Assembly: GCA_039698055.1 (NCBI GenBank)
Contig: JBDKTL010000032.1
Coordinates: 1-64,000 of the forward strand
DNA: 64,000 nucleotides
Direction of reading: 5' to 3'
DNA from: Methanoregula sp.
Lineage (GTDB): Archaea; Halobacteriota; Methanomicrobia; Methanomicrobiales; Methanospirillaceae
Shown: in pieces, positions 61,217 to 64,000 of the stretch
Numbering within the stretch: position 1 is the stretch's first letter
Layout: every line of letters begins with the position of its first letter
The notes under the pieces: model-generated
Databases searched by the model: none
What the model was told of the DNA's origin: nothing
Seen by the model: the letters and a program-made list of their open reading frames with translations, nothing else
Made by a program: the position numbers and the translations under genes

Positions 61217-62902
61217 ATGCCTGAAGTTCTCTCAAGAATTCTGTATGGACTGATGAGACTCCCCACAGAGACCGAATGGGTGGAGTTCAAGGAGGCGGAA
61301 ACCACTTTTGATTTTGAGCAGATCGGGCGATATGTTTCCGCACTAAGTAATGAAGCCAACCTGAACGAAAAATTTGAAGGCTGGCTCATTTTTGGTGTGA
61401 CAGATAAATATCCCAGAAAAATCGTTGGAACGCATTTTTATGAGACTCCCCCAGGACTTGACAACCTTAAACGAAAAATTTCCCAACAAACGAATCATAT
61501 GTTTACCTTTCTCTCGATAAATGAACTTGATACTCCTGACGGACGCGTAGTAATGTTTAAAATCCCCCCAGCAACACGTGGGATTCCAACGGAATGGAAA
61601 GGGTATATGTATGGCCGTATTCATGATTCGATCGGACCGCTTGCGCCCCATAAGGTACAGAGAATCCGAGATCAGTGTGCGACTTTGGACTGGTCTGCTA
61701 TTATCTGCGACAGAGCGACAATTAGCGATCTCGATCCAAATGCGATTAGATTTGCACGACAAGAATACAAGAAAAAATTTTCCACGACCCTCCCCGCACA
61801 TGAAGTTGATGGTTGGAGTGATACAGAATTTCTCAACCGGGCAAAACTCTGTTCTAATGGGAAAATTACCAATGCCGCCTTACTTTTGCTAGGTAAGAGT
61901 GAGTCAGAACATTACCTATCTCCAGCAACGCCGAAGATTACATGGATTTTGAAAGATGAATCAGGCGTCGAAAAAGATTATGCACATTTCGGAGCGCCAT
62001 TAATCCTTGCGGTCAATGGAGTGTTTAGTAAGATCCGAAATCTAACCTACCGGCATATTACCGATGAGACACTATTTCCTTTGGAAATCAGCCAGTACGA
62101 TCCTTGGGTAATTCGGGAAACCTTGCATAATTGTATCGCCCACCAGGATTATTCTCAAGGAACAAGAATTTCTGTTGTCGAGCGATCAGACTCCCTTCTT
62201 TTTACCAACCGTGGTGATTTCATTCCGGGGTCCATTGAGTCTCTTCTCACTCATGACTCTCCTCCTGATAGGTACCGGAATCCTTTCCTTGCGCAGGCGA
62301 TGGTTAACCTGAATATGATCGATACCATAGGTAGTGGTATCAAGCGAATGTTCCGACTTCAAAGGGAGCGGAATTTTCCCTTGCCGGATTATGATCTCCT
62401 CAGTGAACCGAGCAAGGTGAATGTAAAAATTACCGGTAAGGTTATTGATCCAAAATACACCCGGATGCTTATCAAGCGTAAAGATCTTGGTATGCTTGAT
62501 GTGATTGCACTCGATAAAGTTCAGAAGGGCCATCATCTGTCAGATGCGGAATTTGCCTCTCTAAAATCAAAGAAGCTGATTGAAGGGAGACGCCCGAACC
62601 TCTACCTTTCTGAAAAGGTTGCTGCGGAGACAGATACCCGGGCGGATTATATCAGGAAACGGCCATTTGACCGTGGTCATTTCAAAGATATGATCGTCGC
62701 CTATCTCAAAACGTATCGTGAAGCAAACCGGAACACGTTTGAAGATCTGCTGATGGATAAGGTTTCTGATGCACTGAATGAGACCCAGAAACGCCAGTAC
62801 ATCAAGGATCTGCTTCAGGAAATGCGTAAAGATGGAACACTGAAAGCAGTCGGGAAAACACGGGGTGCACGGTGGGTTCTCGCATCAGAGCACCAATCAT
62901 GA
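61217..62902 (+). CDS. AlbA_2/Schlafen-like domain + RecG-C/HATPase-like + HTH protein
   Basis: ETEWVEFKE, SALSN...LIFGVTD, RETLHNCIAHQDY, RNPFLA, IGSGI and C-terminal G.TRGARW. Confidence 0.85.
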   Translation: MPEVLSRILYGLMRLPTETEWVEFKEAETTFDFEQIGRYVSALSNEANLNEKFEGWLIFGVTDKYPRKIVGTHFYETPPGLDNLKRKISQQTNHMFTFLSINELDTPDGRVVMFKIPPATRGIPTEWKGYMYGRIHDSIGPLAPHKVQRIRDQCATLDWSAIICDRATISDLDPNAIRFARQEYKKKFSTTLPAHEVDGWSDTEFLNRAKLCSNGKITNAALLLLGKSESEHYLSPATPKITWILKDESGVEKDYAHFGAPLILAVNGVFSKIRNLTYRHITDETLFPLEISQYDPWVIRETLHNCIAHQDYSQGTRISVVERSDSLLFTNRGDFIPGSIESLLTHDSPPDRYRNPFLAQAMVNLNMIDTIGSGIKRMFRLQRERNFPLPDYDLLSEPSKVNVKITGKVIDPKYTRMLIKRKDLGMLDVIALDKVQKGHHLSDAEFASLKSKKLIEGRRPNLYLSEKVAAETDTRADYIRKRPFDRGHFKDMIVAYLKTYREANRNTFEDLLMDKVSDALNETQKRQYIKDLLQEMRKDGTLKAVGKTRGARWVLASEHQS

Positions 62903-63092
62903 TTCCGAAGGGATCCATTCTCCGGTATCCATTTTTCAAGAGCGTTATTGGAGATCTATTGGAGGGTTATTGGAGAAATTTAATCCCGTTAAATGCCCTG
63001 AAATCGGAAACAGGGCATGCATACATTGCATACTTTGCATACAATGCATACAATGATTGGAGAATGTTGGATAATATTTCGGAAGTTAGACA

Positions 63093-63490
63093 ATGAAAAA
63101 TCCAACACCTACGAACCCGTCCATGATCAACACCCTCCTCTTCGAGCACTTCGCCACGCTCGCTACCGCACCGGATGGCATCGCCCGGCTGCGGGAACTG
63201 ATCTTGCAGCTGGCGGTGCAGGGGAAACTCGGGACGCAGGATGCGAGGGATGAGCCGGCGAGTGTTCTTCTTAGAAGGATAGAAAAAGAGCGAATGGCAA
63301 ACGAGGGAAAAAACAAAAAGGGAAAAACGCTTGCCCCGGTTAAGAATAGTGATGTTGGTTTCCAAATTCCTAACACGTGGGTATTGACCCGGTTAGGCAA
63401 TATTGCCCAATACAATGCAGAGATAAAAACTTCTTCCGATGATATTTCCGACGATGCTTGGGTTTTTGATCTCGAAGATATTGAAAAGGA
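63093..63490 (+). pseudogene. hsdS: Type I RM specificity subunit, truncated by an insertion
   Basis: RLRELILQLAVQGKL...DEPASVLL, FQIPNTW..RLG and DLEDIEK, then abrupt loss of frame. Confidence 0.82.
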
Positions 63491-63504
63491 GGCTCTGTAG
63501 AAAC

Positions 63505-63695
63505 GCACATGAACGGGCGTTCACACCCGAAGTATGAAAATTGCGTAAAATGAAATGTTTTTTTGTGGGCAGCCAAGACTGAGTGGATTTTAGGATCAAA
63601 ATCCTGTTGTAGAAAGTAGTCCTTCCCGTACACCCGAATGCGTCCTGGAACGCGGATGGGAAATTGCCGTGTACAGGAATCAGCTGCCCACAGGA
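63505..63695 (+). ncRNA. Putative IS110 bridge/seek RNA
   Basis: Nested stems 63564-63573/63683-63692, 63585-63591/63598-63604 and 63623-63633/63669-63679 with large internal loops. Confidence 0.55.
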
Positions 63696-63700
63696 TCAGT

Positions 63701-64000
63701 ATGTCAACAGAGAGACGAAAAGTTTGTGGGATAGATGTACACAAAAAATTTCTTGTCGCAACGATTCTTGACCGAGAGGGAAAGAGTGAGACGAGGAGAA
63801 TATCACAGAACACAGAATCACTTCTTGACTTACGCAACTGGATTGAATCGGAGCAATGTGATTCGGTAGCGTTTGAATCGACGGCAGATTACTGGCGATC
63901 GTTGTATCTTATTCTGGAGAATCATGTACCGGTTACCGTTGCGAATGCGCATCACATCAAACATGTTCCCGGAAAGAAAACTGACATAACAGATTCCCAT
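63701..64000 (+). CDS. IS110 family transposase/recombinase (partial, not in ORF track)
   Basis: MSTERRKVCGIDVHKK...FESTADYW...ANAHHIKHVPGKKTDITDS = DEDD RuvC-like domain. Confidence 0.92.
   Translation, partial: MSTERRKVCGIDVHKKFLVATILDREGKSETRRISQNTESLLDLRNWIESEQCDSVAFESTADYWRSLYLILENHVPVTVANAHHIKHVPGKKTDITDSH

What the first reader, a model, noticed from the sequence alone, without database searches (positions are those of the whole stretch)
63505..64000. Archaeal IS110 recombinase with a structured bridge-RNA-like left end
Seen: a DEDD recombinase start at 63701, missed by the ORF track. Upstream are a small 5' hairpin (63510-63523) and a 10-bp closing stem TGTGGGCAGC/GCTGCCCACA enclosing two arms with internal loops (GACT/AGTC plus GGATTTT/AAAATCC; TTCCCGTACAC/GTGTACAGGAA plus GCGT/ACGC). 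Known: IS110 elements encode bridge or seek RNAs in non-coding ends that program target and donor recognition. Inference: a methanogen RNA-guided recombinase whose two arms are enclosed by one long-range stem next to the start codon, which might also control translation.
Basis: partly seen in the sequence, partly recalled or inferred. Interest (0 to 1): 0.75.

Follow-up and report, generated by a model that had tools for sequence, protein, structure and literature searches.

The report
Methanogen IS110 element with bridge RNA
The left end of a methanogen insertion sequence encodes a folded guide RNA whose loops spell out the element's insertion site and its own right end, so it is an archaeal member of the already known RNA-guided "bridge/seek RNA" recombinases.

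Summary
ATG 63701 starts a 419-aa IS110-family DEDD recombinase that runs past the window end to contig position 64960. Upstream, 63561-63695 folds into a 13-bp closing stem enclosing two stem-loops with internal loops.

About 60 homologous left ends (42-92% recombinase identity) keep this fold: 28 of 36 pairs show compensatory changes. The loops behave as guides:
- Arm-1 3' loop equals the left flank plus an A-rich core.
- Arm-1 5' loop is complementary to the core plus right flank.
- Arm-2 3' loop equals the right-end tip.

The element is therefore a bridge/seek-RNA system, which is a known kind.

- The apical stem GGATTTT/AAAATCC is not conserved. GGATTTT is a guide, and the real apical stem is AGGAT/ATCCT.
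- The flanking 12-bp "direct repeat" is not a target duplication. Both copies are termini of a multi-copy DDE insertion sequence, which is this element's target. One such copy has interrupted this copy's right end.

Features that differ from IS621:
- the closing stem;
- the IS1111-type guide order (top-strand guide first);
- subterminal inverted repeats of at least 9 bp;
- an upstream non-coding region.

Unexplained: the arm-2 5' strand is a direct repeat of a left-end segment.

Transcription, strand and activity were not shown.

The parts
63093..63500 (+). Truncated N-terminal HsdS-like ORF (135 aa). Its reading frame ends inside the DDE-IS terminus.
   Evidence: ORF list. No Pfam hit at E<=0.001. 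The HsdS assignment rests only on my reading of the sequence, so it is a recalled resemblance, not a test.
63492..63503 (.). GCTCTGTAGAAA, the terminal 12 nt of a multi-copy DDE insertion sequence. It is the left half of the IS110 target (left target plus A-rich core).
   Evidence: The same 12-mer heads repeated element ends at 19 places in the assembly. It is matched by the arm-1 3' loop.
63504..63560 (+). Left-end leader. It contains a hypervariable tip (63504-63508), the hairpin TGAACGGGCGTTCA (63510-63523), a direct-repeat copy of the arm-2 5' strand ACACCCGAA (63523-63531), the subterminal inverted repeat ATGAAAATTG (63534-63543) and a T-run.
   Evidence: conservation; direct repeat; inverted repeat with the right end; coordinates.
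63561..63695 (+). Core of the predicted bridge/seek RNA. The closing stem P1 (63561-63573 with 63683-63695) encloses both arms.
   Evidence: Covariance model hit at 167 bits. Covariation statistics.
63577..63621 (+). Arm 1, the target-binding loop. It comprises the basal stem GACT/AGTC, a 5' loop GAGTGGATTTT (63581-63591) complementary to core plus right target, the apical hairpin AGGAT-CAAA-ATCCT (63592-63605), and a 3' loop GTTGTAGAAAGT (63606-63617) identical to left target plus core.
   Evidence: 3' loop against the left junction; 5' loop against the right junction; stems.
63623..63679 (+). Arm 2, the donor-binding loop. It comprises a basal stem with one C.A mismatch, a 5' loop CCGAAT, the apical hairpin GCGT-CCTGGA-ACGC (63640-63653), and a 3' loop GGATGGGAAATTGCC (63654-63668) whose ATGGGAAA equals the family's right-end tip.
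   Evidence: 3' loop against the right-end tip in relatives; orphan right end on contig C35 of the same assembly; stems.
63701..64000 (+). First 100 codons of the IS110-family DEDD recombinase. The gene continues to 64960 on the contig, outside the window.

Best explanation
Window 63504 to contig position about 64970 is one copy of an IS110-family (sensu ISfinder) insertion sequence in a methanogen.

The non-coding left end encodes, on the recombinase strand, a guide RNA of about 135 nt. A closing stem holds two stem-loops together.

- Arm 1 is the target-binding loop. [quoted passage not shown] - Arm 2 is the donor-binding loop. [quoted passage not shown]
- The nucleotide just 3' of each 3' guide tends to match the other DNA partner, as the IS621 handshake guides do.

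The DEDD/Ser recombinase loaded with this RNA would bring the joined right-end/left-end donor and the target together and exchange strands within the shared A-run.

The natural target of this lineage is the terminal repeat GCTCTGTAGAAA|(A/T)CCT of a DDE (PF01609) insertion sequence.

What is shown: the fold is conserved with compensatory changes, and three of the four guide segments track their DNA sites. What is inferred: transcription, strand, RNA ends, protein binding, the crossover point and activity.

This copy keeps an intact left end and gene. Nine nt after its stop codon, however, the right end has been cut off by another copy of the same DDE insertion sequence, so it is probably immobile as it stands.
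For: Protein family. S293 in the motif YQS aligns with the YES of IS621.

Fold: a hit upstream of the gene in 62 of 64 loci. 91.2% of cells are paired against 78.0% in shuffles, 0 of 500 shuffles reach this, and 28 of 36 pairs are compensatory. RNAalifold on an unfitted MAFFT alignment already recovers the closing stem, the arm-1 stems and the arm-2 apical stem, with 17 of 24 pairs compensatory.

Arm-1 3' loop against the left junction: the longest shared word falls exactly on the junction in 59 of 59 sequences. Own mean is 8.22 nt against 4.56 for other guides, 29 distinct guides are represented, and 0 of 2000 permutations reach the observed value.

Arm-1 5' loop against the right junction: its reverse complement gives own 5.47 against 4.20, 0 of 2000 permutations, with at least 7 nt in 12 of 43. 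The same-sense control gives 3.53 against 3.37, reached by 323 of 2000 permutations. Examples: AAATCCTC, AAATGCTC (L027), AAAACCT (L030), AAACGGCGG (L074 group).

Arm-2 3' loop against the right-end tip: at least 7 nt in 47 of 55 loci, own 7.73 against 5.02, 0 of 2000 permutations. Eight tip classes are each matched by their own loop: ATGGGAAA, ATAGGAAA, ATGACAAA, ATGGTAAA, ATAGCAAA, ATGCGAA, ATATAAAA and ATGTGAAT.

Reconstructed empty site: the flanks of L015 (92% identical recombinase) rejoin to a DDE-IS terminus like those found uninterrupted in this assembly.

Strand:
- All hits upstream of the gene are in the recombinase sense.
- G.U cells number 128 against 67 A.C cells in the helices.
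- Only the + strand makes both guides run 5' to 3' towards the core, as in IS621 (my inference from PMC11208158, passages read).

Distribution: the fold is found in 18 of 151 genomes of the order and 9 of 33 genera, a patchy pattern as expected of a mobile element.
Against: - No transcript, 5' end or strand was shown. The metatranscriptome records are assembled contigs of relatives at 85-96% likeness and could contain DNA.
- Folding energy alone is not significant (z = -1.83).
- The + strand folds better than the - strand in only 23 of 59 sequences.
- The fourth expected guide, an arm-2 5' strand complementary to the core plus left-end tip, was not found. That strand is instead identical to a left-end segment about 20 nt inside the element. 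The left-end tip is hypervariable and matched by nothing consistent.
- Right-flank matches are short in many distant lineages: fewer than 6 nt in 26 of 43.
- The element is single-copy in this assembly and its right end is disrupted.
- The alignment used for the pair counts was fitted to the model.
- The permutation tests ignore relatedness of the loci.
Confidence: 0.85

Rival explanations
1. The conserved left-end structure is only a 5'-UTR element controlling recombinase translation or transcription (a stem occluding the ribosome-binding site, or an attenuator), with no role as a guide.
For: The 3' strand of the extended closing stem ends 6 nt before the ATG and overlaps an AGGA / AAGGAGGTG Shine-Dalgarno-like stretch in two lineages. 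A T-run precedes the stem.
Against: A pure UTR element would not be expected to carry loop sequences that change together with the flanking host DNA (29 guide variants) and with the right-end tip (8 classes). The two roles are not exclusive, and control of translation may be an added function.
Confidence: 0.04
2. The functional RNA is transcribed from the opposite strand, antisense to the recombinase leader, as an antisense regulator or a guide read in the other sense.
For: MFE is as good or better on the - strand in 36 of 59 sequences, with a mean difference of 0.72 kcal/mol. 67 helix cells are A.C and would be G.U on the - strand, 30 of them at one pair. There is a recurrent C.A mismatch in the arm-2 basal stem.
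Against: G.U cells outnumber A.C cells 128 to 67. The outer closing-stem pairs are U.G in 30-40 sequences and Watson-Crick in other lineages. On the - strand both guides would run from the core outwards, unlike any described bridge or seek RNA (my inference from passages read). Known family members encode the RNA in the recombinase sense (passages read).
Confidence: 0.06
3. The family is functional, but the copy in this window is a stranded relic. Its right end was separated by a DDE-IS insertion, so neither the donor junction nor excision can form from this locus.
For: Nine nt after the stop codon the sequence switches to the DDE-IS terminus and the contig ends 125 nt later in a repeat. An orphan AGATAGTTCC-TCAATTTTCATGGGAAA lies on contig C35 next to the other DDE-IS terminus, consistent with a 9-bp duplication AGATAGTTC. 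There is only one recombinase gene and one RNA motif in the assembly.
Against: C32 and C35 were not shown to be joined, and no hsdS continuation was found on C35. The gene is intact. If the distal right end is in cis, the element could still move as a longer composite. The assembly is 93% complete and repeats collapse, so the copy number may be underestimated.
Confidence: 0.55

Closest known systems
IS621 bridge RNA and recombinase (IS110 group; Durrant 2024 PMC11208160, Hiraizumi 2024 PMC11208158; passages and sections 6-7 read)
   Same: - DEDD plus Tnp-domain recombinase.
- Guide RNA in the long left end, upstream of and in the same sense as the gene.
- A 5' hairpin followed by a target loop and then a donor loop.
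- In each loop one strand reads the bottom strand up to the core and the other reads the top strand from the core.
- The nucleotides after the 3' guide match the non-cognate DNA, like handshake guides.
   Different: - The order of the two guides within each loop is reversed: here the top-strand guide is 5', whereas in IS621 LTG A50-U58 precedes RTG G77-G80.
- Both arms are closed by a 13-bp stem.
- The core is an A-run rather than CT.
- Subterminal inverted repeats are at least 9 bp rather than 2-3 bp.
- No guide for the left-end tip was found.
- The proteins are only distantly related (E 1.5e-11 over the C-terminal part).
- The host is an archaeon.
IS1111-type seekRNA elements ISEc11, ISKpn4 and ISPa11 (Siddiquee 2024 PMC11187229; passages read)
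   Same: [quoted passage not shown] There are subterminal inverted repeats. Insertion is site-specific with the ends abutted.
   Different: In those elements the non-coding region and RNA lie downstream of tnp, whereas here they lie upstream. The long left-end repeat copy sits about 30 nt from the tip, rather than 7 nt. The paper names ISMtsp17 as an IS1111 relative with an upstream non-coding region; I could not compare sequences because supplements are closed.
[quoted passage not shown]
   Same: An IS110/IS1111-family element whose specific target is the terminal repeat of another transposon.
   Different: Different hosts, targets and victim family (here a PF01609 DDE IS of methanogens). The paper was not read.

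Membership tests
IS110 family sensu ISfinder (RNA-guided DEDD recombinases) | Recombinase with DEDD_Tnp_IS110 (RuvC-like) and Transposase_20 domains | tested here: met
   Pfam E 7.9e-26 and 3.1e-25. NF033542 scores 282.7 bits against a cut-off of 140.
IS110 family sensu ISfinder (RNA-guided DEDD recombinases) | Long non-coding end encoding a structured RNA conserved among relatives | tested here: met
   Model hit in 62 of 64 loci. 28 of 36 pairs are compensatory.
IS110 family sensu ISfinder (RNA-guided DEDD recombinases) | RNA loops that match both strands of the target | tested here: met
IS110 family sensu ISfinder (RNA-guided DEDD recombinases) | RNA loop that matches both halves of the donor (right-end/left-end junction) | tested here: inconclusive
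   The right-end half is met: 47 of 55 loci. The left-end tip half was not found. Instead there is a direct repeat of an internal left-end segment.
IS110 family sensu ISfinder (RNA-guided DEDD recombinases) | RNA is expressed and bound by the recombinase; circular intermediate with abutted ends | not testable with these tools
   There are only RNA-library contigs of relatives, with no strand or ends. A right-end/left-end abutment seen in L049 may be a tandem copy.
IS110 group (IS621-like) | Bottom-strand guide (LTG/LDG) 5' of the apical hairpin and top-strand guide 3' of it | tested here: not met
   The order is reversed here, against the passages read.
IS110 group (IS621-like) | Non-coding region upstream of the gene; subterminal repeats absent or 2-3 bp | tested here: inconclusive
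   The upstream position is met. The repeats are at least 9 bp in 32 of 43 pairs, and this length was limited by the window used.
IS1111 group | Subterminal inverted repeats, and top-strand complement before bottom-strand match in the RNA | tested here: met
   against the passages read.
IS1111 group | Non-coding region downstream of tnp; terminal extensions of 7 and 3 bp | tested here: not met
   The RNA region is upstream. The left copy of the long repeat lies 30 nt from the tip. The right extension GGG before the A-run would fit 3 bp.

The most novel reading that the evidence does not exclude
This methanogen clade is a distinct architectural variant of bridge recombination. It has IS1111-type guide logic and long subterminal repeats, but the RNA sits in the left end, closed into one three-way unit.

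The donor loop does not read the left-end tip. Instead it carries a copy of a left-end segment about 20-28 nt inside the element, followed by a sequence resembling the subterminal repeat. The left end would then be recognised at a subterminal site (RNA pairing with the bottom strand there) or by a non-guide mechanism.

The clade specialises in parasitising the terminal repeats of DDE insertion sequences.
Probability: 0.3. Interest if true: 0.6.

Novelty: new member of a known kind. Interest (0 to 1): 0.4.

Why it matters
Bridge and seek RNAs are the only known RNAs that specify both partners of a recombination. All characterised examples are bacterial.

This result gives a well-supported archaeal clade, about 60 natural variants with 29 target guides and 8 donor classes. 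That set is a ready natural reprogramming series.

The clade mixes hallmarks of the IS110 and IS1111 groups. It therefore bears on how the RNA moved between element ends, and on how the left end is recognised.

For the host, it shows one insertion sequence homing into the termini of another. That process breaks up a restriction-modification specificity gene region here.

It does not change the known mechanism unless the donor-loop oddity proves functional.

Tried and rejected
Rfam: nothing near a gathering score.

Strand from folding energy: inconclusive.

Metatranscriptomes: runs X1, X2, X4 and X5 hold contigs of relatives over the left end and gene. Two contigs of one study start at the same place, but the extra letters show a variant left-end tip, so this is an assembly break rather than an RNA end. 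There is no information on strand or ends, and DNA carry-over is possible. Parts without cover mean nothing.

12-bp direct repeat as a target duplication: rejected. The right copy belongs to a second DDE-IS terminus.

Guide for the left-end tip:
- UGCGU after the subterminal repeat pairs with ACGCA of the tip in this copy, and GCCC with GGGC in L002/L013, but most lineages break it (by eye).
- No consistent reverse-complement 7-mer of the arm-2 5' strand occurs anywhere in 16 representative elements.

Joining C32 to C35 through hsdS: no HsdS-like frame on C35.

Placing the protein in the IS110 or IS1111 subgroup:
- tblastn against plasmids gives at most about 35% identity, and all hits are named only 'IS110 family transposase'.
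- The PDB holds only IS621 and ISCro4, both distant.
- No tree was built, for want of labelled references.

Not run: structure prediction, complex prediction, protein-database searches and atlas searches.

Literature:
- No paper on bridge or seek RNAs of methanogens turned up with the terms 'bridge RNA'+IS110+archaea (22 papers, 15 listed; passages of two read), 'bridge RNA'+methanogen (1 paper, listing only) or IS110+Methanoregula (1 paper; passages, irrelevant).

Full report
WHAT IS THERE

The window is contig C32:1-64000 of a 49-contig assembly, and the contig runs on to 65095. From ATG 63701 an open frame gives a 419-aa protein ending at 64960. Only its first 100 codons lie in the window.

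The protein carries DEDD_Tnp_IS110 (residues 9-153, E 7.9e-26) and Transposase_20 (248-332, E 3.1e-25). It passes NCBIfam NF033542, 'IS110 family RNA-guided transposase', at 282.7 bits against a cut-off of 140. Its only solved relatives are the IS621 and ISCro4 transposases (E 1.5e-11 and 1.8e-10). In that alignment its Y291-Q292-S293 lines up with the YES of IS621.

TTCCCGTACAC/GTGTACAGGAA has one C.A mismatch.

IS IT MORE THAN CHANCE?

On its own the fold is unremarkable: z = -1.83, and 10 of 200 shuffles fold as well. Rfam has nothing.

I collected relatives in two ways. First, 13 loci came from species genomes; their records are MAGs titled Methanoregula, Methanoregulaceae, Methanolinea or Methanomicrobiales, plus one Syntrophaceae and one Dehalococcoidia. 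Second, I took the best 80 of 177 metagenome loci. Recombinase identity to the window's protein ranges from 42 to 92%.

An unfitted MAFFT alignment of 59 distinct left ends was made. On it RNAalifold recovers the closing stem, the arm-1 basal and apical stems and the arm-2 apical stem. Of 24 predicted pairs, 17 are compensatory.

I built a covariance model from 20 close sequences with my structure. It hits directly upstream of the gene, in the gene's sense, in 62 of 64 loci. L079 and L088, whose upstream DNA is unrelated, have no hit. There are also three extra copies.

On the 62 distinct rows:
- 91.2% of cells pair, against 78.0% in shuffles (0 of 500 shuffles reach this).
- 28 of 36 pairs change on both sides.
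- The covariation score is 0.391, against 0.06-0.08 when the partners are slid.

That alignment is fitted to the model, so these figures lean towards the structure.

One correction follows. The conserved apical stem of arm 1 is AGGAT/ATCCT, which changes to GAGA/TCTC, GGGA/TCCC, GAAA/TTTC and AGAG/CTCT.

THE LOOPS ARE GUIDES

(a) Arm-1 3' loop (GTTGTAGAAAGT here). In 59 of 59 sequences its longest shared word with the 130 nt further upstream lies exactly on the left junction, at 4-11 nt. Examples are TCAACAAAACT in L039, CAATGAAA in L008, TTAGGAAA in L043 and TCGTTGAATC in L067. Own pairs average 8.22 nt, against 4.56 for guides of other classes. There are 29 distinct guides, and 0 of 2000 permutations reach the observed value.

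(b) Arm-1 5' loop. Its reverse complement matches the right junction (A-run plus right flank). Own pairs average 5.47 nt against 4.20, with 0 of 2000 permutations reaching this, and at least 7 nt in 12 of 43. The same-sense control shows nothing: 3.53 against 3.37, reached by 323 of 2000. Clear co-changes are GAGAGG/AAATCCTC to GAGAGC/AAATGCTC (L027) and to GAGAGGT/AAAACCT (L030), and AAACGGCGG in the 42% group. In 26 of 43 pairs the match is under 6 nt, so this guide is the weaker one.

(c) Arm-2 3' loop. It equals the last 7-9 nt of the right end in 47 of 55 loci. Own pairs average 7.73 nt against 5.02, with 0 of 2000 permutations. Eight different tips are each mirrored by their own loop.

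(d) Extensions. The base after the A-run in the arm-2 guide (U) often equals the first base of the right flank. The base after the arm-1 guide is C, which equals the first left-end base, in many lineages. In this copy, however, it is G. This resembles the handshake guides described for IS621 (passages of PMC11208158). The resemblance is my inference.

Target and donor share only the A-run. GAAA is shared here. In L067 AAT meets AAA, which suggests a crossover within AA.

COMPARISON WITH DESCRIBED SYSTEMS

In IS621 the RNA lies in the left end, with a 5' stem-loop, then the target loop, then the donor loop. [quoted passage not shown] These are LTG A50-U58, RTG G77-G80, LDG A123-C130 and RDG A157-G165 (PMC11208160 section 6; PMC11208158 passages).

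Here the position and the loop order are the same, but within each loop the guide order is reversed. Siddiquee et al. report exactly that order (top-strand complement first) for IS1111-type seekRNAs and the opposite for an IS110-type one. They describe 11-13-bp subterminal inverted repeats as the IS1111 hallmark, usually with the non-coding region downstream of tnp. A few exceptions, such as ISMtsp17, have it upstream (PMC11187229 passages).

The present clade has an inverted repeat between the right end and the left end:
- CAATTTTCAT lies just before the right-end tip.
- ATGAAAATTG lies at 63534-63543.
- The repeat is at least 9 bp in 32 of 43 pairs. That length was capped by the window I used. 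Its distal bases co-vary (TTG, TCG, TCT, ACC, AAT).

The clade therefore mixes the hallmarks of both groups. The closing stem around both arms is not part of the IS621 description. Durrant et al. do mention multi-loop structures for IS1111 RNAs (passage), but I could not see their figures or supplements.

Archaeal IS110 recombinases as such are known. Vaysset et al. report 662 of them and infer several transfers into archaea (preprint passages).

STRAND

All model hits next to the gene are in the gene's sense. In the helices 128 cells are G.U and 67 are A.C, 30 of the latter at one doubtful pair. The outer closing-stem pairs are U.G in 30-40 sequences and Watson-Crick in other lineages.

Only the + strand gives guides that run 5' to 3' towards the core, as in IS621 with the DNA turned by 180 degrees. 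This is my inference.

Folding energies do not discriminate: the + strand is better in 23 of 59.

RNA-library contigs of relatives cover the left end and the gene, but they say nothing about strand, ends or even transcription.

AN UNEXPLAINED PIECE

By analogy, the arm-2 5' strand should be complementary to the A-run plus the left-end tip. It is not. The tip (63504-63508) is hypervariable even between near-identical elements: CGCAC, CGGGC, CGAGC, CAGGC, CACAC and others.

Instead, the arm-2 5' strand plus the adjoining stem bases (ACACCCGAA, 63630-63638) is a direct repeat of 63523-63531 in the left-end leader.
- A same-sense 8-mer copy exists there in 10 of 16 representative lineages.
- Across 47 distinct pairs the own mean is 7.04 nt against 4.70 for non-own, with 0 of 2000 permutations reaching this. 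The reverse-complement control gives 3.74.
- The classes are as different as AAGCATACG, ATGCAAGAA, AGGCATACA and ACACAAAAA.

In the leader this copy is followed by the subterminal repeat ATGAAAATTG, which resembles the arm-2 3' loop ATGGGAAATTG. The leader thus looks like the donor loop without its hairpin.

Possible readings, none of them tested:
- The leader RNA competes with the donor loop.
- The repeat is a relic of a duplication.

CONTEXT AND STATE OF THIS COPY

The 12-nt GCTCTGTAGAAA at 63492-63503 recurs at 64971-64982. It is not a duplication made by this element.

The same 12-mer, mostly followed by (A/T)CCT, heads repeated DNA at 19 places in the assembly. Ten of these lie within 126 nt of a contig end. 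The 125 nt after 64971 are 100% identical to the ends of C36 and C1.

One such element on C35 encodes a 318-aa DDE_Tnp_1 protein (PF01609, E 8.5e-13). C9:1009-1516 is a 508-bp derivative with both kinds of end.

Relatives of the IS110 element sit in the same kind of terminus. GCTCTGT(A/T)GAAA lies to the left in L004, L010-L013, L015, L017 and L024-L027, among others. The flanks of L015 rejoin to an intact terminus.

The target of this lineage is therefore the terminal repeat of a DDE insertion sequence. An earlier first-stage note on the same stretch said the same (e1-6364714).

In the window the left 12-mer is what remains, on that side, of a DDE-IS copy that had truncated an HsdS-like ORF (63093-63500).

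On the right, the family's canonical end (…CAATTTTCATGGGAAA) is missing. Nine nt after the stop codon (AGATAGTTC) a second DDE-IS terminus begins and the contig ends.

Contig C35, read in reverse, shows the other DDE-IS terminus, then AGATAGTTCC, then TCAATTTTCATGGGAAA, then TCCTCA…, which is the body of another DDE element. This fits an insertion of the DDE element into the IS110 right end with a 9-bp duplication.

The join C32-C35 is not proven. One base of the duplicated 10-mer differs, and no hsdS continuation is seen.

The assembly holds one recombinase gene and one RNA motif. In the order the motif occurs in 18 of 151 genomes searched and 9 of 33 genera.

VERDICT

The finding is right in substance: this is an archaeal IS110-family element with a bridge/seek RNA.

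It belongs to a known kind, with a mixed IS110/IS1111 architecture, a closed two-arm RNA, a transposon-end target and one unexplained donor-side repeat.

Expression, strand, protein binding, crossover point, translational control and activity remain inferences.

Noticed in passing
window 63492-63503 and contig 64971-65095; G000 contigs C1, C2, C9, C11, C19, C28, C29, C31, C33, C35, C36, C40, C41: A multi-copy DDE (PF01609) insertion sequence with termini GCTCTGT(A/T)GAAA(A/T)CCT. Its two ends differ in sequence, and it accounts for many contig breaks. There is a 508-bp MITE-like derivative at C9:1009-1516.
   Followed up: partly
L045:960-1200: One element sits inside the DNA that encodes arm 1 of another copy, directly after that copy's own 3' guide. 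This is expected if the guide-coding DNA is itself a half target. The right flank does not continue that copy.
   Followed up: partly
L049 right end; L086:2300-2551; L002:4089-4233: The right end of one element abuts the left end of another (L049, same type; L086, next to an L092-type left end). There is also a second inverted copy near L002. These could be tandem insertions or assembled circle junctions.
   Followed up: no
L002, L024, L040 (and L016), right ends: In four loci from different subfamilies (58-85% identity) the canonical tip …TTTTCATGGGAAA is replaced by …TTTAATATG(G/A)AAAT. In L002, L024 and L040 it is followed by a homologous flank (…GGC(T/C)CACC…GAAATT…GATC(G/A)AGAG…). This could be recombination with a donor-like site in some other repeated element.
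   Followed up: no
L003, L005, L006 (and L033): The same insertion with identical flanks occurs in MAGs titled Syntrophaceae bacterium, Methanolinea sp. and Methanoregulaceae archaeon. A near-identical element lies in a 'Dehalococcoidia' MAG contig (L004). Mis-binning seems more likely than transfer between domains.
   Followed up: no
L065:990-1200: A chimeric left end. Its leader carries the AAGCATAC segment typical of the L067 class, while its donor loop is of the L047 class.
   Followed up: no
window 61217-62902: A 561-aa protein with Schlafen AlbA_2 (E 3.8e-12) and HATPase_c_4 (E 4.1e-11) domains lies just upstream of the broken HsdS-like ORF, in a defence-island-like setting.
   Followed up: no
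window 63017-63057: A short run of imperfect 9-10-nt repeats (CATACATTG / CATACTTTG / CATACAATG) lies between the Schlafen-like gene and the HsdS-like ORF.
   Followed up: no
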